This document shows positions 9,870 to 39,651 of a stretch of 39,651 bases of DNA, in pieces. The notes beneath the pieces are model-generated. The model saw nothing but the letters and a program-made list of their open reading frames with translations. It searched no databases and was not told the origin of the DNA. Location of the stretch: the sequence record PQ850620.1; one strand, 5' to 3'. Positions within the stretch are counted from its first letter, which is position 1, and every line of letters begins with the position of its first letter. Made by a program: the position numbers and the translations under genes. This stretch comes from Escherichia phage MeretOppenheim_Bas102.

Positions 9870-10892
9870 ATGATGAACATTAAGACTAGCCCATTTAAAG
9901 CCGTGTCTTTCGTAGAGTCCGCCATTAAGAAGGCTCTGGGTAACGCTGGGTATCTTATCGCTGACATCAAGTACGATGGTGTACGTGGGAACATCTGCGT
10001 AGACAATACCGCTAACAGTTGCTGGCTCTCTCGTGTATCTAAAACGATTCCGGCGCTGGAGCACTTAAACGGGTTTGATGTTCGCTGGAAGCGTCTGCTG
10101 AACGATGACCGTTGCTTCTACAAGGATGGCTTCATGCTCGATGGGGAACTCATGGTCAAAGACGTAGACTTCAACACAGGGTCCGGCCTACTGCGTACCA
10201 AATGGACTGACACTAAGAACCAAGAGTTCCACGAAGAGTTATTCGTTGAACCGGTACGTAAGAAAGATAAAGTTCCCTTTAAGCTGCACGCCGGACACCT
10301 TCACGTCAAACTGTACGCTATCCTCCCGCTGCACATCGTGGAGTCTGGAGAAGATTGCGATGTCATGACGTTACTCATGCAGGAACACGTTAAGAACATG
10401 CTGCCTCTGCTACAGGAATACTTCCCTGAAATCGAATGGCAAGCGGCTGAATCTTACGAGGTCTACGATATGGTGGAACTACAGCAACTGTATGAACAGA
10501 AGCGTGAAGAAGGCCATGAGGGTCTCATCGTGAAAGACCCGATGTGCATCTATAAGCGCGGTAAGAAGTCCGGCTGGTGGAAACTTAAGCCTCTTGAGGA
10601 AGCTGACGGCATCATTCAAGGTGTAAACTGGGGAACCGAAGGGCTTGCTAACGAAGGTAAAGTGATCGGCTTTAGTGTCTTGCTAGAAAGCGGGTGTGTA
10701 GTAGATGCTAATAACATCTCACGGGAACTGATGGATGAATTTACAGCTAACGTTAAAGAACATGGCGAGGACTACTACAATGGGTGGGCTTGTCAAATTG
10801 GATTTATGGAGGTAACACCTAATGGAAACCTTAGACATCCGTCCTTCACCTGCTTCCGAGGAACTGAGGACAATCCGAAAGAGAAAGTATAA
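9870..10892 (+). CDS. 1.3: ATP-dependent DNA ligase (gp1.3)
   Basis: 340-aa ORF MMNIKTSPFKAVSFVESAIKKALGNAGYLIADIKYDGVRGN... with adenylation motif KYDG; C-terminal region shorter than T7 ligase as I recall it. Confidence 0.93.
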   Translation: MMNIKTSPFKAVSFVESAIKKALGNAGYLIADIKYDGVRGNICVDNTANSCWLSRVSKTIPALEHLNGFDVRWKRLLNDDRCFYKDGFMLDGELMVKDVDFNTGSGLLRTKWTDTKNQEFHEELFVEPVRKKDKVPFKLHAGHLHVKLYAILPLHIVESGEDCDVMTLLMQEHVKNMLPLLQEYFPEIEWQAAESYEVYDMVELQQLYEQKREEGHEGLIVKDPMCIYKRGKKSGWWKLKPLEEADGIIQGVNWGTEGLANEGKVIGFSVLLESGCVVDANNISRELMDEFTANVKEHGEDYYNGWACQIGFMEVTPNGNLRHPSFTCFRGTEDNPKEKV

Positions 10893-11292
10893 GTATAACC
10901 CTGCGGCTCCTTCGGGAGTCGTTTCTGCCTCTGGTAAACCAATAGGTTACAAGCGGAAAGATGGGTATTGGCTACTTTCTTATGGAGGAAAGCATGTACT
11001 TGCACACAGGGTGGTCTGGATGCTTAACTTCGGTGTCATACCGGAGGGAATGGTGATAGACCACATTAACAGAAACCCTAGCGATAACCGTATAGAGAAT
11101 CTTCGAATAGTAACTCAATCAGCTAACCTAATGAACGTAGGCGTCCGGTCTCATTGTAGGAGTGGAGAGAAGTTTATCTCCCTTGATGTGAGAACCGGAC
11201 GTTTTTCCGTTCGTATCAGGAGAAAATCCTATGGCACATATGGTACTCTCGAAGAGGCTATAGCTGTGCGCGATGCTAATACGACTCACTAA
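10822..11292 (+). CDS. HNH homing endonuclease with C-terminal AP2-like DNA-binding domain, overlapping ligase 3' end
   Basis: 156-aa ORF with HNH motif IDHINRNPSDNRIENLRIVTQSANLMN and AP2-like tail (GRFSVRIRRKSYGTYGTLEEAIAVRDA); own RBS GGAGG at 10808-10812 inside ligase ORF; occupies the position of T7 gene 1.4; true start uncertain. Confidence 0.75.
   Translation: METLDIRPSPASEELRTIRKRKYKYNPAAPSGVVSASGKPIGYKRKDGYWLLSYGGKHVLAHRVVWMLNFGVIPEGMVIDHINRNPSDNRIENLRIVTQSANLMNVGVRSHCRSGEKFISLDVRTGRFSVRIRRKSYGTYGTLEEAIAVRDANTTH
10902..10930 (+). terminator. TE-like early terminator (for host RNAP)
   Basis: hairpin CGGCTCC-TTCG-GGAGTCG followed by TTTCTGCC immediately after the ligase stop; resembles the T7 TE element (GGCTCACCTTCGGGTGGGCCTTTCTGCG) as I recall it. 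Confidence 0.55.
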
Positions 11293-13035: not shown

Positions 13036-13491
13036 GTGGCTGGCGCATACGCTGCGCGTGGTATCCGAAAGGTCGGGACATTCCGTTCCGGCCTAGAAGA
13101 TAATGTCTCTAAGCAGCTAGAGGGTAAGGGCATTCAGTTCGACTATGAACTGTGGAAAATCCCTTACGTTGTCCCTGCGAGCAACCATATGTATACTCCA
13201 GACTTCCTGCTGCCTAACGGAATCTTTATTGAAACCAAGGGTTTATGGGAGAGTGACGACCGAAAGAAACACTTACTGATTCGCGAACAGTTTCCTGAAC
13301 TGGACATCCGTCTGGTGTTCTCAAGCTCACGCACCAAGCTGTACAAAGGGTCTCCGACCAGTTACGGTGAATGGTGCGAGAAGCACGGCATTCTGTTTGC
13401 TGACAAATTAATTCCTGTAGAATGGCTCAAAGAACCCAAAAAGGAGGTGCCATTTGACAAGCTGAAACAATCGAAGGGAGGAAAGAAATAA
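13036..13491 (+). CDS. 3: endonuclease I, Holliday-junction resolvase (gp3)
   Basis: 151-aa ORF (M)AGAYAARGIRKVGTFRSGLEDNVSKQLEGKGIQFDYELWKIPYVVPASNHMYTPDFLLPNGIFIETKGLWESDDRKKH...; GTG start directly abutting the gene 2.5 stop codon. Confidence 0.92.
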   Translation: MAGAYAARGIRKVGTFRSGLEDNVSKQLEGKGIQFDYELWKIPYVVPASNHMYTPDFLLPNGIFIETKGLWESDDRKKHLLIREQFPELDIRLVFSSSRTKLYKGSPTSYGEWCEKHGILFADKLIPVEWLKEPKKEVPFDKLKQSKGGKK

Positions 13492-13970: not shown

Positions 13971-14002
13971 CCACAACGGTTTCCCTTTGTTCGCAATGTT
14001 GA

Positions 14003-15736
<1,734 letters not shown>

Positions 15737-15743
<7 letters not shown>

Positions 15744-15759
15744 ACTCACTAAAGGAGCT
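15737..15759 (+). promoter_or_regulatory. T7 RNAP promoter phi4.3
   Basis: TAATTAGACTCACTAAAGGAGCT; its +2 to +6 GGAG serves as RBS for the inserted HNH gene. Confidence 0.8.
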
Positions 15760-15765
15760 AACCAC

Positions 15766-16191
15766 ATGGACACTAACTTAGCGAGATTTGAAATATTCTT
15801 GAAGATTGATGGTGACTGCTGGTTGTTCACTGGTGGAAGGGCGCACTCCTATGGAGTCTTCTGGATGAACGGTAAGAATCACAAGGCACATAGGGCCGCC
15901 TTCGAACTTTATAACGGGAGGAAACCTAATGGCGTTATACTACATTCTTGTGATAATCCTTTGTGCTGCAATCCCGCTCATCTATCTGAGGGAACTCAGC
16001 TTGATAATATGGTGGACATGGTTAGAAAGGGACGCTCATTGAGAGGTACTAAGAATCCAATGTGCAAGTTTACTGATGCGGATGTTAAGTTCATCCGAGA
16101 GTCTACCATGAAGGTCAAGGATTTAGCTGCTTTATTCGGAGTAACCCGCCAAACAATAACTAAATGGAGGAGGCACCAATGTTCAAACTGA
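15766..16191 (+). CDS. free-standing HNH (His-Me finger) endonuclease inserted between promoter phi4.3 and gene 4.3
   Basis: 142-aa ORF MDTNLARFEIFLKIDGDCWLFTGG... with motif HSCDNPLCCNPAHL and C-terminal HTH-like TRQTITKWRR; paralogous to gp7.7 and to the intron ORF; not present at this locus in T7. Confidence 0.8.
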   Translation: MDTNLARFEIFLKIDGDCWLFTGGRAHSYGVFWMNGKNHKAHRAAFELYNGRKPNGVILHSCDNPLCCNPAHLSEGTQLDNMVDMVRKGRSLRGTKNPMCKFTDADVKFIRESTMKVKDLAALFGVTRQTITKWRRHQCSN

Positions 16192-16410: not shown

Positions 16411-16680
16411 ATGTCAAACGTAGCTGAAACTATCCGTCTATCCGATACCGCTGACCAGTGGAACCGTCGGGTTCACATCAACGTTCGTAACGGAAAGGCT
16501 ACTATGGTCTACCGTTGGAAGGACTCCAAGTCCTCTAAGAATCACACTCAGCGTATGACGTTGACAGATGAGCAAGCACTGCGTCTGGTCAATGCGCTTA
16601 CCAAAGCTGCCGTGACAGCAATCCATGAAGCTGGTCGCGTCAATGAAGCTATGGCTATCCTCGACAAGATTGATAGCTAA
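16411..16680 (+). CDS. 4.5: gp4.5
   Basis: 89-aa ORF MSNVAETIRLSDTADQWNRRVHINVRNGKATMVYRWKDSKSSKNHTQRMTL... Confidence 0.85.
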   Translation: MSNVAETIRLSDTADQWNRRVHINVRNGKATMVYRWKDSKSSKNHTQRMTLTDEQALRLVNALTKAAVTAIHEAGRVNEAMAILDKIDS

Positions 16681-16684
16681 GAGT

Positions 16685-16722
16685 GGTATACTCAAGGTCG
16701 CCCAAGTGGTGGCCTTCATGAA
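16685..16722 (+). promoter_or_regulatory. RNase III processing site R4.7 (predicted)
   Basis: CTCAAGGTCGCCCAAGTGGTGGCCTTCATG between 4.5 and phi4.7. Confidence 0.5.
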
Positions 16723-16724
16723 TA

Positions 16725-16747
16725 CTATTAGACTCACTATAGGAGGT
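16725..16747 (+). promoter_or_regulatory. T7 RNAP promoter phi4.7
   Basis: CTATTAGACTCACTATAGGAGGT upstream of gene 4.7. Confidence 0.75.
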
Positions 16748-16753
16748 ATTATC

Positions 16754-17161
16754 ATGCGTGACCCTAAAGTTATCCAAGCAGAAATCGCTAAGTTGGAAGC
16801 TGAACTGGAGGACGTTAAGTTCCATGAGGCCAAGACCCGCTCCGCTGTTCACATCTTGAAGAACTTAGGCTGGACTTGGACAAGACAGACTGGCTGGGAG
16901 AAACAAGAAGTTAACAAGCTGAGCCACAAGGTGTTCGATAAAGACACTATGACCCACATCAAGGCTGGTGATTGGGTTAAGGTTGCCATGGGAGTTGTTG
17001 TTGGATACGGCTACGTCCGCTCAGTTAGTGGTAAATATGCACAAGTGTCATACATCACAGGCGTCACTCCACGAGGAGCAATCGTTGCCGATAAGACCAA
17101 CATGATTCATACAGTCTTCTTGACAGTTGTCTCGTATGAAGAGATTGTTAAGTCACGATAA
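16754..17161 (+). CDS. 4.7: gp4.7
   Basis: 135-aa ORF MRDPKVIQAEIAKLEAELEDVKFHEAKTRSAVHILKNLGWTWTRQTGW... downstream of phi4.7. Confidence 0.85.
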   Translation: MRDPKVIQAEIAKLEAELEDVKFHEAKTRSAVHILKNLGWTWTRQTGWEKQEVNKLSHKVFDKDTMTHIKAGDWVKVAMGVVVGYGYVRSVSGKYAQVSYITGVTPRGAIVADKTNMIHTVFLTVVSYEEIVKSR

Positions 17162-17179: not shown

Positions 17180-19138
17180 ATGATCGTTTCTGACATCGAA
17201 GCTAACGCCCTCTTAGAGAGCGTCACTAAGTTCCACTGCGGGGTTATCTACGACTACTCCACCGCTGAGTACGTAAGCTACCGTCCGAGTGACTTCGGTG
17301 CGTATCTGGATGCGCTGGAAGCCGAGGTTGCACGAGGCGGTCTTATTGTGTTCCACAACGGTCACAAGTATGACGTTCCCGCATTGACCAAACTGGCAAA
17401 GCTACAATTGAACCGTGAGTTCCACCTTCCCCGTGAGAACTGTATCGACACCCTTGTGCTGTCACGCTTGATTCACTCTAACCTGAAAGACACCGATATG
17501 GGTCTTCTGCGTTCCGGTAAGTTGCCCGGTAAACGATTTGGGTCTCACGCTTTGGAGGCGTGGGGTTATCGCTTAGGCGAAATGAAGGGTGAATACAAAG
17601 ACGACTTTAAGCGTATGCTTGAAGAGCAGGGTGAAGAGTACGTTGACGGAATGGAGTGGTGGAACTTCAACGAAGAGATGATGGACTATAACGTTCAGGA
17701 CGTTGTGGTCACTAAGGCTCTACTTGAGAAGCTACTCTCTGACAAACACTACTTCCCTCCTGAGATTGACTTTACGGACGTAGGTTACACTACGTTCTGG
17801 TCAGAATCCCTTGAGGCCGTTGACGTTGAACATCGCGCTGCGTGGCTACTCGCTAAGCAAGAGCGAAATGGATTCCCGTTTGACACGAAAGCAATCGAAG
17901 AGTTGTACGTAGAGTTAGCTGCTCGCCGCTCTGAGTTGCTCCGTAAATTGACCGAAACGTTCGGCTCATGGTATCAACCTAAGGGTGGCACCGAAATGTT
18001 CTGCCATCCGCGAACAGGCAAGCCACTGCCTAAATACCCTCGCATTAAGACACCTAAAGTTGGTGGTATCTTTAAGAAGCCTAAGAACAAGGCACAGCGA
18101 GAGGGCCGTGAGCCTTGCGAACTTGATACCCGCGAGTACGTTGCTGGCGCTCCGTATACTCCAGTTGAGCACGTAGTGTTTAACCCTTCGTCTCGTGACC
18201 ACATCCAGAAGAAACTCCAAGAGGCTGGATGGGTCCCCACGAAGTACACCGATAAGGGTGCTCCTGTGGTGGACGATGAGGTACTCGAAGGAGTACGTGT
18301 AGATGACCCCGAGAAGCAAGCTGCTATCGACCTCATTAAAGAGTACTTGATGATTCAGAAGCGAATCGGACAGTCTGCTGAGGGAGACAAGGCATGGCTC
18401 CGTTACGTTGCCGAGGACGGTAAGATTCATGGTTCTGTTAACCCTAATGGAGCAGTTACGGGTCGTGCGACCCATGCGTTCCCCAACCTTGCGCAAATTC
18501 CGGGTGTACGTTCTCCTTATGGGGAGCAGTGCCGTGCTGCTTTTGGCGCTGAGCATCATTTGGATGGGCTAACTGGTAAGCCTTGGGTTCAGGCAGGTAT
18601 CGATGCATCCGGTCTGGAGCTACGCTGCTTAGCCCACTTTATGGCTCGCTTTGATAACGGTGAGTACGCCCACGAGATTCTTAACGGTGACATCCACACT
18701 AAGAACCAGATGGCTGCTGAACTGCCTACCCGTGATAACGCCAAGACGTTCATCTACGGGTTCCTGTATGGTGCTGGCGATGAGAAGATTGGGCAGATTG
18801 TTGGTGCTGGTAAAGAGCGCGGCAAGGAACTCAAGAAGAAATTCCTTGAGAACACCCCAGCTATTGCAGCACTACGCGAGTCTATCCAACAGACACTTGT
18901 CGAGTCCTCTCAGTGGGTAGCAGGTGAGCAACAAGTCAAGTGGAAACGCCGCTGGATTAAAGGTCTGGATGGTCGTAAGGTACACGTTCGTAGTCCTCAC
19001 GCTGCCTTGAATACCCTGCTCCAATCCGCTGGTGCTCTCATCTGCAAACTGTGGATTATCAAGACCGAAGAGATGCTCGTAGAGAAAGGCTTGAAGCACG
19101 GCTGGGATGGGGACTTTGCGTACATGGCATGGGTGCAT
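17180..19138 (+). CDS. 5: DNA polymerase (gp5), exon 1 encoding residues 1-653
   Basis: Family A polymerase with 3'-5' exonuclease domain ([26 protein letters not shown]...); reading frame ends ...[11 protein letters not shown] then runs into 7 aberrant codons and a stop at 19160-19162 unless spliced. Confidence 0.9.
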
Positions 19139-19739
19139 AAACTATTTCATTGTGCACATTAAATCTGGTGAACTCGGTGAAACCCTAATGGGGCAATACC
19201 GAGCCAAGCCATAGGGAGGATATATGAGAGGCAAGAAGTTAATTCTTGAGGCCACTGAGACTGGCTGTATCATCCCTACGTCACACAAACTTAATGCTGA
19301 TGGTTATTTCAGAAAGAAAACCAATGGCGTCTTGGAGATGTATCACAGAACGGTGTGGAAGGAGCATAATGGAGAAATACCTGAAGGCTCCGAGATAGAC
19401 CATAAGTGTCGCAATAGGGCTTGCTGTAACATAGAGCATTTACAGATGCTTGAAGGTACAGCCCACACTGTTAAGACCAATCGTGAACGCTACGCAGACA
19501 GAAAGGAAACAGCTAGAGAATACTGGCTGGAGACTGGATGTACAGGCCTAGCACTCGGTGAGAAGTTTGGTGTGTCGTTCTCTTCCGCTTGTAAGTGGAT
19601 TAGAGAATGGAAGGCGTAGAGACTATCCGAAAGGAGTAGGGCCGAGGGTGAGACTCCCTCGTAACCCGAAGCGCCAGACAGTCAACTCAAAGACTGATGA
19701 TATAGTCCGACACTCCTAGTAATAGGAGAATACAGAAAG
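19139..19739 (+). mobile_element. group I self-splicing intron (inferred) interrupting gene 5 at motif C
   Basis: 601-nt insertion starting after exon U19138 and ending with G19739; GTGCAC (19152-19157) pairs with exon end GTGCAT (19133-19138) giving P1 with U-G wobble at the splice site; TTTCAT (19146-19151) complements exon 2 start ATGAAA (19741-19746) = P10; GACTAT (19621-19626)/ATAGTC (19702-19707) candidate P7; exon frame restored exactly. Confidence 0.8.
19224..19619 (+). CDS. intron-encoded HNH (His-Me finger) homing endonuclease
   Basis: 131-aa ORF MRGKKLILEATETGCIIPTSHKLNADGYFRKK... with motif EIDHKCRNRACCNIEHL, own RBS GGGAGGA 4 nt upstream; lies wholly inside the inferred intron. 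Confidence 0.8.
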   Translation: MRGKKLILEATETGCIIPTSHKLNADGYFRKKTNGVLEMYHRTVWKEHNGEIPEGSEIDHKCRNRACCNIEHLQMLEGTAHTVKTNRERYADRKETAREYWLETGCTGLALGEKFGVSFSSACKWIREWKA

Positions 19740-19895
19740 GATGAAATCCAAGTAGGTTGCCGTACCGAAGAGATTGCTCAGGTTGTCATTGAGACTGCAC
19801 AAGAGGCAATGCGCTGGGTAGGAGACCACTGGAACTTCCGGTGTCTTCTGGATACCGAAGGTAAGATGGGTCCTAATTGGGCCGTATGTCACTGA
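19740..19895 (+). CDS. 5: DNA polymerase (gp5), exon 2 encoding residues 654-704
   Basis: in-frame continuation DEIQVGCRTEEIAQVVIETAQEAMRWVGDHWNFRCLLDTEGKMGPNWAVCH matching the conserved C-terminus of T7 DNA polymerase; spliced product 704 aa. Confidence 0.88.
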   Translation, partial: DEIQVGCRTEEIAQVVIETAQEAMRWVGDHWNFRCLLDTEGKMGPNWAVCH

Positions 19896-19914
19896 TTCTA
19901 TAGGAGAAATTATT

Positions 19915-37727: not shown

Positions 37728-39596
37728 ATGGCTAACGTAATTAAAACCGTTTTGACTTACCAGTTAGATGGCTCCAATCGTGATTTTAATATTCCGTTTG
37801 AGTATCTAGCCCGTAAGTTCGTAGTGGTAACCATTATTGGTGTAGACCGCAAGGTCCTTACGATTAATACAGACTATCGTTTTGCTACTCGTACTACCAT
37901 CTCACTGACCAAGGCTTGGGGTCCAGCGGATGGATACACGACCATCGAGTTGCGCCGAGTAACCTCCACGACAGACCGCTTGGTTGACTTTACGGACGGC
38001 TCAATCCTCCGTGCGTATGACCTAAACGTTGCTCAGATTCAAACGATGCACGTAGCGGAAGAGGCCCGTGACCTTACTGCTGATACCATAGGTGTCAATA
38101 ATGATGGTCACTTGGATGCTCGTGGTCGCCGTATTGTGAACCTAGCGAACGCTGTGGATGACCGTGACGCTGTTCCGTTCGGGCAACTTAAGACCATGAA
38201 CCAGAACTCGTGGCAGGCGCGTAATGAGGCTCAAGGTTTCCGTAATGAGGCTGAGACTTTCAGAAATCAAGCGGAGGGCTTTAAGACTGAGTCTGGCACT
38301 AACGCTGCTAATACGAAGCAGTGGCGTGATGAGACCAAAGGTTTCCGAGATGAAGCTGAGCAGTTCAAGAATACTGCTGGTCAATATGCTACATCTGCTG
38401 GCAACTCTGCTACCGCCGCACATCAATCTGAGGTAAACGCTGGGAACTCCGCTACAGCCTCCGCTAATTCCGCTAATTTGGCAGAACAGCAAGCAGACCG
38501 AGCGGAACGCGAAGCAGACAAGTTGGGTAACTGGAATGCACTTGCAGGGGCCATTGATAGTGTCGATGGTAACAATGTCATGTTTAAAGGGGACATTCGA
38601 ACACCAAATAACATTGTAGGTGGTGGCTTAATCTCCAACGGTGCTGGTCATTTTGAGAAAGGAGTGCGTATTAGAGAGGGATTAGATGTTATAGGGGACA
38701 TTGCGGCACATAAGGATGTGTGGGTAGATGGTGTGGTTGTTGCCAATGGCGGTATACAGCAACAATCAGGGCCTAATTCAAGTAACGATATGTGGCGACT
38801 GTATATTAAAGGGGGACCACGGTATATCGGATACAGCCAAGGTCTTCATCTTGGTTGGAACGAGAGCGGTGGGTGGGGTGAATCATGCTTTGTTACTAAC
38901 AAAGGCGCAGGTAGCGGAGGTTTTGTTTTCCGCACGGTAAACTTTGAGAACAGTGTTGAGATTGGTCGCGTTACATTCAATGGTAACGGTGGGGTACGCG
39001 CCTACGATTTCCAAACAGTTAATGGTGCTCGTATTGAGGCTGGGAATAATATAGTTTGCGCGAGCATCTTCGCAGGAATGGGCGGCTGCGCGTTAGATAC
39101 TGTAGGTAACTTAGTAAACGGTGTATGGAACAACGTTGGTGGTGATTTGTATAACTACCTACAGAACAAGTCCCACTTCGCTAAGCCACCTGCTGGGGTT
39201 AAATTGTTTACATCACGCGGTGGTGACTACCTTGAGGGTGTGGTGGATGCTACCGCTGTTGGGTTCCGCTGGTTCAATTCTGACAGAAGGCTTAAAGAAA
39301 ACATAAAGGTTGTACGTTCCGCTGATGATATGCTTAAGATTATCCGCTCATACATCCCGGTTTCCTATAAGTATAAGGACTCTGAGCATGTTGATAAGCG
39401 CGGCAGAACGGTAAGTGTTACTGGTAAGAACTCTCGTGCCGGTTTCATTACTCAGGATTTGATTCGAATCTGGCCAGAGGCGGTTGACGTACTATCCGAT
39501 GGTATGCAATCTCCAGACCCTAACCAAATCATTGGCGGACTAATGCTTCTTGTCAAGAACCTTGACGAACGCGTACAGGAGTTGGAGAAAAAATAA
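37728..39596 (+). CDS. 17: tail fibre protein (gp17), mosaic: T7-like N-terminal tail-attachment/coiled-coil region, divergent receptor-binding region, C-terminal S74-type intramolecular chaperone domain
   Basis: 622-aa ORF; residues 1 to ~285 recognisable as T7 gp17 (MANVIKTVLTYQLDGSNRDFNIPFEYLARKF...); downstream sequence differs from T7 as I recall it; C-terminal ~105 aa begin with SDRRLKENI, the conserved cleavage-site signature of self-cleaving chaperone domains. Confidence 0.9.
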   Translation: MANVIKTVLTYQLDGSNRDFNIPFEYLARKFVVVTIIGVDRKVLTINTDYRFATRTTISLTKAWGPADGYTTIELRRVTSTTDRLVDFTDGSILRAYDLNVAQIQTMHVAEEARDLTADTIGVNNDGHLDARGRRIVNLANAVDDRDAVPFGQLKTMNQNSWQARNEAQGFRNEAETFRNQAEGFKTESGTNAANTKQWRDETKGFRDEAEQFKNTAGQYATSAGNSATAAHQSEVNAGNSATASANSANLAEQQADRAEREADKLGNWNALAGAIDSVDGNNVMFKGDIRTPNNIVGGGLISNGAGHFEKGVRIREGLDVIGDIAAHKDVWVDGVVVANGGIQQQSGPNSSNDMWRLYIKGGPRYIGYSQGLHLGWNESGGWGESCFVTNKGAGSGGFVFRTVNFENSVEIGRVTFNGNGGVRAYDFQTVNGARIEAGNNIVCASIFAGMGGCALDTVGNLVNGVWNNVGGDLYNYLQNKSHFAKPPAGVKLFTSRGGDYLEGVVDATAVGFRWFNSDRRLKENIKVVRSADDMLKIIRSYIPVSYKYKDSEHVDKRGRTVSVTGKNSRAGFITQDLIRIWPEAVDVLSDGMQSPDPNQIIGGLMLLVKNLDERVQELEKK

Positions 39597-39651
39597 CGTT
39601 TAAGGATAACACCAGATTAGGACCAAGGATGGTCTTTAATAAGGAGGATAC

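What the first reader, a model, noticed from the sequence alone, without database searches (positions are those of the whole stretch)
19139..19739. DNA polymerase gene split by a group I intron inserted between the His653 and Asp654 codons of catalytic motif C
Read from 17180, gene 5 encodes a family A polymerase up to ...[11 protein letters not shown], then runs into 7 aberrant codons (KLFHCAH) and a stop at 19160-19162. The conserved C-terminal 51 residues (DEIQVGCRTEE...NWAVCH) resume in the same frame at 19740, after exactly 601 nt. The insertion has the hallmarks of a group I intron: the exon ends in U (19138); the intron ends in G (19739, omega-G); the last six exon nt GTGCAT pair with intron GTGCAC (19152-19157), giving a P1 helix with the U-G wobble at the 5' splice site; the adjacent TTTCAT (19146-19151) complements the first exon-2 nt ATGAAA (19741-19746), giving P10; GACTAT (19621-19626) and ATAGTC (19702-19707) are a candidate P7. 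Splicing would yield a 704-aa polymerase, the T7 length. Unspliced message would give a truncated enzyme missing the motif C aspartate and the C-terminal His, so replication depends on RNA splicing. From memory, a gene 5 group I intron has been described in T7-like phages (PhiI and W31, Bonocora and Shub); I cannot verify whether this is the same element.
Basis: partly seen in the sequence, partly recalled or inferred. Interest (0 to 1): 0.85.

Follow-up and report, generated by a model that had tools for sequence, protein, structure and literature searches.

The report
Known self-splicing intron in polymerase gene
The DNA polymerase gene of this T7-like phage is interrupted by a 601-base self-splicing group I intron that carries its own homing endonuclease gene; it is real and essential for making the enzyme, but it is the same element described in phage PhiI in 2004, so it is ordinary.

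Summary
Gene 5 runs from 17180 to 19138, and a 601-nt insertion (19139-19739) puts a stop at 19160. The frame resumes at 19740. Joining the exons gives a 704-aa protein, 700/704 identical to T7 gp5 with no gaps, split exactly at His653|Asp654.

The insertion is a subgroup IA2 group I intron.
- Rfam RF00028 matches over its full length (E 3.8e-10, 45 bits). It falls just under the gathering score because a 396-nt ORF sits in P6a.
- In 16 homologous copies, 94.9% of base-pair cells pair and 27 of 63 pairs show compensatory changes. No shuffle in 500 does as well.
- P1 and P10 covary with the exon sequence.
- The intron ORF is an HNH homing endonuclease, 128/131 identical to I-TslI of phage PhiI (Bonocora & Shub 2004).

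Copies 97-99% identical lie at the same site in sequenced phages. GenBank already annotates 13a and K1F gene 5 as spliced.

Verdict: real, correctly interpreted, already known, low interest. Side notes: the same intron sits at the same motif-C site in unrelated phage groups, and automatic annotation mostly misses it.

The parts
17180..19138 (+). Gene 5 exon 1 (DNA polymerase residues 1-653, ends ...AWVH)
   Evidence: Pfam DNA_pol_A E 5.7e-39. Collinear with T7 gp5.
19139..19739 (+). Group I intron, subgroup IA2, 601 nt
   Evidence: Rfam RF00028 full-length match, E 3.8e-10. No T7 counterpart. Covariation.
19133..19138 (+). P1 5' strand (exon GUGCAU; U19138 pairs with G19152 as the U-G wobble at the 5' splice site)
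   Evidence: helix 1: 100% paired. The U-G pair is present in 15/15 sequences. The first pair is G-C in 12 and A-U in 3, covarying with the exon.
19152..19157 (+). P1 3' strand (internal guide sequence GUGCAC)
19144..19150 (+). P10 5' strand (AUUUCAU), pairs with the start of exon 2
   Evidence: helix 2: 85.7% paired with 2 double-change pairs. Examples: 13a AUCUCAU/AUGAGAU and PT2 CUUCAU/AUGAAG.
19741..19747 (+). P10 3' strand (exon 2 AUGAAAU)
19164..19170 (+). P3 5' strand (UCUGGUG)
   Evidence: helices 3-4: 5 of 7 pairs have double changes.
19672..19678 (+). P3 3' strand (CGCCAGA), forming the pseudoknot with P7
19173..19203 (+). P4-P5 domain: P4 CUCGGU 19173-78 with ACCGAG 19198-203; P5 CCC 19183-85 with GGG 19191-93
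   Evidence: helices 5-6: 100% paired with double changes (for example UUCGGG/CCCGAG in L087).
19204..19212 (+). P6 (CC 19204-05) and P6a (CCAU 19209-12) 5' strands
   Evidence: helices 7-9. The second P6 pair is C-G in 11 sequences and U-A in 4.
19214..19219 (+). Ribosome-binding site GGGAGG of the intron ORF
   Evidence: Read directly from the sequence. It lies 4 nt upstream of the ATG at 19224.
19224..19619 (+). Intron ORF: 131-aa HNH homing endonuclease (I-TslI-like) in the loop of P6a. Its last codons supply the 3' strands of P6a (AUGG 19607-10) and P6 (GG 19613-14).
   Evidence: Pfam HNH_3 E 2.4e-15. 128/131 identical to I-TslI of PhiI. Best fold match is I-HmuI, PDB 1u3e.
19621..19625 (+). 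P7 5' strand (GACUA)
   Evidence: helix 10: 98.7% paired and nearly invariant. Reproduced by the MFE fold.
19626..19667 (+). P7.1 (UCC-GAAA-GGA, 19626-35), GUA linker (19636-38) and P7.2 (19639-67), the signature of subgroup IA2
   Evidence: helices 11-13. GUA is invariant in 16/16 sequences. MFE fold.
19679..19696 (+). P8 hairpin (CAGUC ... GACUG)
   Evidence: helix 14: 4 of 5 pairs have double changes. MFE fold.
19703..19707 (+). P7 3' strand (UAGUC), within the conserved AUGAUAUAGUCCGA core motif
19713..19728 (+). P9 hairpin (CUCCUA-GUAA-UAGGAG)
   Evidence: helix 15: 100% paired, 4 of 6 pairs have double changes.
19739..19739 (+). Terminal G (omega-G) at the 3' splice site
   Evidence: The last intron base is G in all 16 copies.
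19740..19895 (+). Gene 5 exon 2 (residues 654-704, DEIQVGC...NWAVCH, plus the stop codon)
   Evidence: 50/51 identical to T7 gp5.

Best explanation
The region 19139-19739 is a mobile, self-splicing group I intron of subgroup IA2. It interrupts the essential DNA polymerase gene between the codons for His653 and the catalytic Asp654 (motif C).

How it most likely works:
1. The intron is transcribed as part of the gene 5 message.
2. The RNA folds into the P3-P9 ribozyme core.
3. The last six exon-1 bases pair with the internal guide (P1, with a U-G wobble at the splice site).
4. An external guanosine attacks the 5' splice site.
5. The adjacent guide segment aligns exon 2 (P10), the terminal G docks, and the exons are ligated.
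6. The result is mRNA for a full-length 704-aa polymerase.

The loop of P6a carries an independently translated 131-aa HNH homing endonuclease, essentially I-TslI. In mixed infections it cuts intron-less polymerase alleles near the insertion site, so that repair copies the intron in (homing).

Shown here: the exon junction, the fold with its covariation, the endonuclease family, and near-identity to the published PhiI element. Inferred from that published element and from general group I chemistry: actual splicing, endonuclease cleavage and homing in this particular phage.
For: - The spliced product is 704 aa, 700/704 identical to T7 gp5 with no gaps.
- The insertion is exactly a window-specific segment relative to T7.
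- Rfam RF00028 matches model positions 1-253 at E 3.8e-10.
- On 16 homologs, 94.9% of cells pair against 34-50% in slid controls. 27 of 63 pairs have compensatory changes, and 0/500 shuffles reach any measure. Both pseudoknot helices hold up: P3 through compensatory changes, and the nearly invariant P7 through 98.7% pairing.
- P1 covaries with the exon: GUGCAU/GUGCAC against AUGCAU/GUGCAU.
- P10 tracks the exon-2 sequence.
- The MFE fold of the 3' domain reproduces P7, P7.1, P7.2, P8 and P9 with z = -3.16.
- The IA2 hallmark, P7.1 and P7.2 joined by an invariant GUA, is present (criterion from PMC3428280).
- The ORF matches Pfam HNH_3 at E 2.4e-15 and is 128/131 identical to I-TslI of PhiI. 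H60, N69 and H72 are invariant in 42 homologs. The best fold match is I-HmuI.
- The ribozyme is far more conserved than the host exons across lineages, as expected for a horizontally moving element.
- GenBank annotates 13a and K1F gene 5 as a join around this element.
- The literature reports efficient in vivo splicing and in vitro self-splicing for PhiI and W31 (Bonocora & Shub 2004, cited).
Against: - The Rfam score (45 bits) is below the curated gathering score (50), and the whole-window gathering scan found nothing. This is explained by the ORF insertion: all 12 other ORF-bearing homologs that matched also score 28.7-44 bits, while the ORF-less relative in phage Arash scores 58.9.
- No splicing or cleavage experiment exists for this exact sequence.
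- The endonuclease differs from I-TslI at three residues next to the HNH motif (E51D, E54D, S56F).
- The structural match to I-HmuI is weak (E 0.011, TM 0.36).
Confidence: 0.95

Rival explanations
1. A decayed intron relic: the sequence descends from the PhiI-type intron but no longer self-splices efficiently, or needs a protein helper, and the endonuclease is inactive.
For: - No experiment exists on this exact sequence.
- There are three substitutions near the HNH motif relative to I-TslI.
- Decayed copies do exist: Citrobacter phage NS1 has a broken P7 and P7.1.
Against: - In the window every helix is fully paired.
- The ORF is intact with all invariant HNH residues.
- Gene 5 is essential, and both exons are about 99% identical to T7 at the protein level. 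A non-splicing copy would be lethal.
Confidence: 0.03
2. A fractured gene: the polymerase is made as two separately translated polypeptides (1-660 and a C-terminal piece) that assemble without RNA splicing.
For: - Many GenBank records annotate the pieces as separate CDSs.
- In SU7, PE006 and the Edwardsiella phage an in-frame ATG happens to abut exon 2.
Against: - In the window no in-frame start codon precedes exon 2. The first in-frame ATG lies about 23 codons into exon 2 (GCA ATG CGC), downstream of the catalytic Asp654-Glu655.
- The ATG at 19741 is out of frame and stops after 4 codons.
- The intervening RNA has a covariation-supported ribozyme fold, which a simple gene split would not need.
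Confidence: 0.01
3. An intein or other protein-level insertion that is removed after translation.
For: The insertion lies in a conserved catalytic motif of a replication protein and carries a homing endonuclease, which is a typical intein setting.
Against: - There is an in-frame TAA at 19160-19162, seven codons into the insertion.
- The endonuclease ORF is in a different reading frame from gene 5 and has its own RBS.
- Pfam finds no intein or Hint domain.
Confidence: 0.005

Closest known systems
Group I intron in gene 5 of T7-like phages PhiI and W31, encoding I-TslI (Bonocora & Shub, J Bacteriol 2004, 186:8153; Curr Biol 2009, 19:223)
   Same: - Same host gene and same insertion site (E. coli Pol I position 881, the His|Asp of motif C).
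- Same subgroup (IA2), with the HNH ORF in P6a.
- The endonuclease is 128/131 identical to I-TslI of PhiI.
   Different: - Three amino-acid substitutions in the endonuclease.
- The host genome here is a very T7-like phage (gp5 99.4% identical to T7). Its exact proteins are not in the 15-billion-protein collection.
- I could not align the intron directly with AY769989 or AY769990, because those partial records are not in the searchable collections.
Gene 5 introns already in sequenced phage genomes (LNA7, PDP351P2, Sekstaphage-1, VSG32, 13a, K1F and others)
   Same: - A 601-nt (598-nt in K1F) element at the identical site. Identity is 97-99% for the first four, 87% for 13a and 82% for K1F.
- 13a and K1F are annotated in GenBank as a spliced gene 5 with an internal endonuclease.
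   Different: - Most records annotate the exons as separate CDSs and do not mark an intron.
- The ORF diverges much faster than the ribozyme (82% against 97% for 13a).
T3 gene 5.3 free-standing HNH homing endonuclease
   Same: - 48% identical to the intron ORF over the HNH domain.
- It lies immediately downstream of an intron-less gene 5.
- From my memory of the 2009 paper, it is reported to cut the polymerase gene at the same position as I-TslI. The review PMC3984707 describes the endonuclease as 'pre-adapted' to the intron insertion site.
   Different: - It is not inside an intron.
- It is 101 aa and lacks the C-terminal ~35-aa helical (HTH-like) region.
- The window has no gene 5.3 at all. 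T7's own gene 5.3 is unrelated in sequence.
SPO1/SP82/Bastille and Pf-WMP3 DNA polymerase introns with I-HmuI-type HNH endonucleases
   Same: - Group I introns in family A polymerase genes that carry HNH homing endonucleases.
- I-HmuI (PDB 1u3e) is the best structural match to the predicted endonuclease.
   Different: - A different insertion site (position 674 against 881, E. coli Pol I numbering).
- In SPO1 the ORF is in P8 rather than P6a (PMC3073962).
- No detectable sequence similarity to any PDB chain.

Membership tests
Group I intron | Conserved catalytic core of paired regions P3-P9, including the P3/P7 pseudoknot | tested here: met
   63 pairs, 94.9% of cells paired, 27 pairs with compensatory changes, 0/500 shuffles; the MFE fold reproduces P7, P7.1, P7.2, P8 and P9 (z = -3.16).
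Group I intron | P1 helix between the end of exon 1 and an internal guide sequence, with a U-G wobble at the 5' splice site | tested here: met
   GUGCAU 19133-38 pairs with GUGCAC 19152-57. The U-G pair is present in 15/15 distinct sequences, and the first pair covaries G-C/A-U with the exon.
Group I intron | Guanosine as the last intron nucleotide (omega-G), and P10 pairing with exon 2 | tested here: met
   G19739, and G in all 16 copies. P10 is AUUUCAU/AUGAAAU, 85.7% paired, with changes tracking exon 2.
Group I intron | Match to the Rfam RF00028 covariance model at its gathering score | tested here: inconclusive
   45 bits against a gathering score of 50, although E = 3.8e-10 with a full-length model match. 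No hit at gathering threshold. The 12 other ORF-bearing homologs that matched also fall short, while the ORF-less relative scores 58.9 bits.
Group I intron | Guanosine-dependent self-splicing that yields ligated exons | not testable with these tools
   Reported for PhiI and W31 in vivo and in vitro (Bonocora & Shub 2004, via PMC3428280). Not tested for this sequence.
Subgroup IA2 | Extra helices P7.1 and P7.2 between P7 and P3', joined by a G-U-A sequence | tested here: met
   P7.1 is 19626-35, GUA is 19636-38 (invariant in 16/16), and P7.2 is 19639-67. Both helices covary. The criterion is as stated in PMC3428280.
HNH homing endonuclease (I-TslI / I-HmuI type) | HNH (beta-beta-alpha-metal) catalytic motif | tested here: met
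   Pfam HNH_3 E 2.4e-15. H60, N69 and H72 plus cysteines are invariant in 42 homologs. The AlphaFold model has mean pLDDT 87. The top PDB fold hit is I-HmuI at prob 0.89, E 0.011, which is weak.
HNH homing endonuclease (I-TslI / I-HmuI type) | Site-specific cleavage of the intron-less allele near the insertion site, and intron homing | not testable with these tools
   Reported for I-TslI (Bonocora & Shub 2009; summarised in PMC3984707). Indirect support here: the ribozyme and ORF are far more similar across lineages than the host exons.
Intein | In-frame insertion translated as part of the host protein, with Hint splicing motifs | tested here: not met
   There is an in-frame TAA at 19160-62. 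The ORF is in another frame with its own RBS. No Hint or intein domain was found.

The most novel reading that the evidence does not exclude
The only potentially new content concerns the family, not this copy.

(a) The same intron plus endonuclease sits at the identical His|Asp site of motif C in polymerases that are otherwise unalignable at the DNA level. These include phiEco32-like Gordonclarkvirinae (SU7, ECBP2, PE006), Vibrio phage Vp_R1 (Grimontviridae) and KP34-like Edwardsiella and Klebsiella phages. This implies homing across phage families through one ultra-conserved target. I found no description of this spread in the held literature.

(b) The endonuclease RBS may be sequestered by a long-range hairpin with codons 15-19 of its own ORF, which would link endonuclease translation to intron folding.
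Probability: 0.15. Interest if true: 0.3.

Novelty: already known. Interest (0 to 1): 0.12.

Why it matters
For this window it matters mainly for annotation. Gene 5 must be annotated as join(17180..19138,19740..19895), with an intron and an internal HNH endonuclease gene. It should not be annotated as a truncated polymerase plus orphan ORFs, which is how most related GenBank records read.

It is also a practical warning. Rfam's gathering threshold misses every member of this ORF-bearing intron family that was scanned (28.7-45 bits against a cut-off of 50), so pipelines will under-call it.

Biologically it is a textbook case already in the literature: an essential replication enzyme whose catalytic aspartate can only be joined to the rest of the protein by RNA self-splicing. 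It is also the model system for how free-standing endonucleases and introns combine into mobile elements.

Tried and rejected
- **Rfam at gathering threshold on the whole window:** no hits. Only the E-value mode recovered the intron.
- **Primary papers:** PMC529087, PMC2856452 and the review PMC4436680 are not held. I used secondary sources and marked the rest as memory.
- **Exact-sequence look-up** of the endonuclease and the truncated polymerase: not in the collection.
- **IMG/VR scan with ATGATATAGTCCGA:** this proved to be a generic IA2 core motif with more than 120 loci. Only L087 belongs to this family.
- **PDB sequence search with the endonuclease:** nothing at E <= 0.01.
- **T7-promoter-like 'CCATAGGGAGG' in P6a:** rejected. 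No promoter match with up to 3 mismatches lies in or near the intron, and the spacing to the upstream AATAC is 3 nt too long.
- **RBS-sequestering hairpin (19212-19223 with 19267-19278):** MFE folds predict it in most homologs. However, z = -0.81 and fixed-register covariation is not above controls (74.8% against 72.8%). Its 3' strand also encodes the conserved GCIIPT, so the result is inconclusive.
- **T7 gp5.3 as a relative of the intron ORF:** rejected (E 4.2). T3 gp5.3 is the real homolog.
- **Literature search for the intron in phiEco32-like phages:** nothing specific found.

Full report
**1. The observation**

- The ORF that starts at 17180 encodes a family A polymerase (Pfam DNA_pol_A, E 5.7e-39).
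- It runs to ...[11 protein letters not shown], continues through KLFHCAH, and stops at TAA 19160-19162.
- The sequence from 19740 encodes DEIQVGCRTEE...NWAVCH in the same frame, 601 nt later.
- Joining 17180-19138 to 19740-19895 gives a 704-aa protein that is 700/704 identical to T7 gp5 with no gaps. The break therefore lies precisely between His653 and Asp654.

A blastn comparison with the whole T7 genome shows that the window is a circularly permuted, T7-like genome. Only five of its segments lack a T7 counterpart, and one of them is 19139-19739, to the base. The phage uses canonical T7 promoters, with ten matches, and none lies in or next to the insertion.

**2. What the insertion is**

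Rfam found nothing at gathering thresholds over the window. In E-value mode the group I intron model RF00028 matches 19129-19729 over its full length (positions 1-253) with E = 3.8e-10 and 45 bits, against a gathering score of 50. It treats about 400 nt as one insertion.

That insertion is an ORF at 19224-19619, preceded by GGGAGG. It encodes a 131-aa protein with a Pfam HNH_3 domain (E 2.4e-15).

The shortfall in score is a property of the family, not a weakness of this copy. The 12 other ORF-bearing homologs that matched score 28.7-44 bits, while an ORF-less relative in Salmonella phage Arash scores 58.9 bits.

**3. The fold**

I assigned the helices by hand.

| Helix | Window coordinates |
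|---|---|
| P1 | 19133-38 / 19152-57 |
| P10 | 19144-50 / 19741-47 |
| P2 | absent |
| P3 | 19164-70 / 19672-78 |
| P4 | 19173-78 / 19198-203 |
| P5 | 19183-85 / 19191-93 |
| P6 | 19204-05 / 19613-14 |
| P6a | 19209-12 / 19607-10, with the ORF in its loop |
| P7 | 19621-25 / 19703-07 |
| P7.1 | 19626-35 |
| GUA linker | 19636-38 |
| P7.2 | 19639-67 |
| P8 | 19679-96 |
| P9 | 19713-28 |
| omega-G | 19739 |

I tested this on 16 homologous introns with the ORF removed (alignment A1). They come from T7-, T3- and K1F-like phages, an Aeromonas phage, three phiEco32-like phages or relatives, a Vibrio phage, two KP34-like phages and one metagenomic contig.
- 94.9% of pair cells form standard pairs, against 34-50% when partners are slid by 1-3 columns.
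- 27 of 63 pairs carry changes on both sides.
- None of 500 shuffles reaches any of the five measures.

Support covers the pseudoknotted P3 through compensatory changes. P7 is nearly invariant but pairs in 98.7% of cells.

Two results directly confirm the splice-site assignments.
- The first P1 pair is G-C where the exon reads GUGCAU and A-U where it reads AUGCAU.
- The P10 strand changes with exon 2: AUUUCAU/AUGAAAU here, AUCUCAU/AUGAGAU in 13a, and CUUCAU/AUGAAG in PT2.

An unconstrained MFE fold of 19617-19739 reproduces P7, P7.1, P7.2, P8 and P9 (z = -3.16). P7.1 and P7.2 joined by an invariant G-U-A is the stated signature of subgroup IA2 (PMC3428280).

**4. Identity with the published element**

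A protein search with the intron ORF found more than 200 clusters of homologs. One cluster contains I-TslI of phage PhiI (AAV53690.1). The window's ORF is 128/131 identical to it.

PMC3428280 summarises Bonocora & Shub (2004) as follows.
- These were the first group I introns described in T7-like enteric phages PhiI and W31.
- They are subgroup IA2, with the HNH ORF in P6a.
- The insertion is at E. coli Pol I position 881.
All of this is as found here.

At the DNA level the 601-nt element is 97-99% identical to copies at the same site in phages LNA7, PDP351P2, Sekstaphage-1 and VSG32. It is 87% identical to 13a and 82% to K1F. Forty records hold it, out of about 815 that match the surrounding genes.

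GenBank already annotates gene 5 of 13a and K1F as a two-piece join with an internal endonuclease. A 2016 paper refers to the K1F intron in passing (PMC4925675). The element is therefore known. The exact proteins of this window are not in the large protein collection, so the phage itself may be a new isolate.

**5. How it works**

*Shown:*
- The catalytic Asp654 and the C-terminal 51 residues can be joined to residues 1-653 only by removing 19139-19739 from the RNA.
- No in-frame start codon precedes exon 2. The ATG at 19741 is out of frame and terminates after four codons.
- Both exons are under strong constraint, at 99.4% identity to T7 gp5.

*Inferred from group I chemistry and from the reported splicing of PhiI and W31:* guanosine-initiated two-step transesterification, guided by P1 and P10.

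The endonuclease has all the invariant HNH residues. Its predicted structure is confident (mean pLDDT 87): an N-terminal beta-rich HNH part, a long helix, and a C-terminal helical unit. Its best, though weak, PDB match is I-HmuI, the HNH endonuclease of the SPO1 polymerase intron (E 0.011, prob 0.89).

Mobility is supported indirectly. Across lineages the ribozyme is far more conserved than its host gene.
- Against K1F, the exons are 63-68% identical and the ribozyme 88-94%.
- Against SU7 and Vp_R1, the exons are about 49-51% identical (effectively unalignable) and the ribozyme 66-76%.

All T7-like, intron-bearing alleles fetched read GTGCAT at the junction, whereas intron-less T7 reads GTACAT and T3 reads ATACAC. 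The G restores a P1 pair, which fits either co-conversion or selection for splicing.

**6. Relation to free-standing endonucleases**

T3 gene 5.3, directly downstream of an intron-less gene 5, is 48% identical to the intron ORF over the HNH domain and lacks the C-terminal ~35 residues. T7 gene 5.3 is unrelated.

The window has no gene 5.3 at all: gene 5.5 follows exon 2 directly. The same holds in the intron-bearing T7-like loci I fetched where the downstream gene can be identified.

This fits the published proposal that an endonuclease already adapted to the intron insertion site moved into the intron (Bonocora & Shub 2009, as summarised in PMC3984707). The details of identical cleavage positions come from my memory of that paper.

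**7. Rivals**

- An intein is excluded by the in-frame stop and by the different reading frame of the ORF.
- A 'fractured gene' translated in two pieces is excluded for this window, because exon 2 has no usable start codon and the intervening RNA has a covariation-supported ribozyme fold.
- A decayed, non-splicing relic is unlikely. Every helix is intact, the ORF is intact, and the gene is essential. A decayed copy does exist elsewhere (Citrobacter phage NS1).

**8. Verdict**

The element is already known and annotated in relatives, so interest is low.

The modest residual points concern the family rather than this copy.
- The same intron occupies the same motif-C site in several unrelated phage families.
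- Both Rfam thresholds and automatic annotation miss it systematically.
- An RBS-sequestering hairpin was suggested, but it did not pass a formal covariation test.

Noticed in passing
window 10822-11292: A free-standing HNH_3 endonuclease ORF (156 aa, Pfam E 7.6e-20) lies in a segment with no T7 counterpart. Its start overlaps the 3' end of the DNA ligase gene (9870-10892). It is probably another homing endonuclease insertion.
   Followed up: partly
window 15727-16191: A second free-standing HNH_3 ORF (154 aa, E 3.6e-12, with a weak C-terminal HTH) lies in a non-T7 segment just after the primase/helicase gene. With the intron ORF, this phage carries three HNH endonuclease genes.
   Followed up: partly
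window 19896-19898 (T7 16468-16834 missing); also around 13039-13060 and 13998-14033: T7 gene 5.3 is cleanly absent, and gene 5.5 follows exon 2 directly. The T7 gene 2.8 and 3.8 regions are also unmatched. The intron-bearing relatives where the downstream gene can be identified likewise lack a gene between 5 and 5.5, which hints that the intron and a free-standing 5.3 are alternatives.
   Followed up: partly
window 19212-19223 with 19267-19278: The endonuclease RBS and the bases just before its AUG are predicted to pair with codons 15-19 (GCIIP) of the same ORF, in this copy and in most homologs. The fold is not better than shuffles (z = -0.81) and fixed-register covariation is not significant, so RBS sequestration remains unproven.
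   Followed up: yes
L011 (SU7), L013 (PE006), L012 (Vibrio Vp_R1), L014 (Edwardsiella DT115P1), L015 (Klebsiella RCIP0053): The same intron-plus-HNH element sits at the identical ...H|DE... site of motif C in polymerases of unrelated phage groups (about 77-kb Gordonclarkvirinae, a 112-kb Vibrio phage, KP34-like phages). The exons are unalignable with T7 at the DNA level. The KP34-like copies have an extra P2 hairpin that the window lacks.
   Followed up: partly
L016 1349-1620 (Salmonella phage Arash): An ORF-less 272-nt group I intron (Rfam 58.9 bits, above gathering) whose 3' half resembles this intron. It is inserted at a different site (motif B, ...AKSVTF | ...LLYGA) of a family A polymerase annotated as two genes ('polymerase nu' and 'polymerase theta') with a 'hypothetical protein' between them.
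   Followed up: partly
L005 (Citrobacter phage NS1, MN715150.2 477-1879): A K1F-type copy has substitutions that break P7 (GAUAUACUC) and P7.1, a 10-nt insertion after P4, and non-polymerase sequence after the 3' splice site. The record starts inside the gene. It is either a decayed copy or an assembly problem.
   Followed up: no
L006-L011, L013-L015 (GenBank annotations): Most public records annotate gene 5 as a truncated polymerase, an HNH gene and a small 'hypothetical' or 'polymerase' ORF, and do not mark an intron. Only 13a and one K1F record use a join. In SU7, PE006 and the Edwardsiella phage an in-frame ATG abuts exon 2 and has been annotated as a start.
   Followed up: partly
window 38579-39651 and window 1: The window is circularly permuted relative to T7: it starts at about T7 coordinate 36345. 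The C-terminal part of the tail-fibre gene has no T7 match, which suggests a different host range.
   Followed up: no
window 19139-19739 against homologs: Within the intron, the ribozyme halves are much more conserved than the ORF (13a: 96.5% and 97.5% against 81.9%). This suggests faster evolution of the endonuclease gene, or its exchange independently of the ribozyme.
   Followed up: partly
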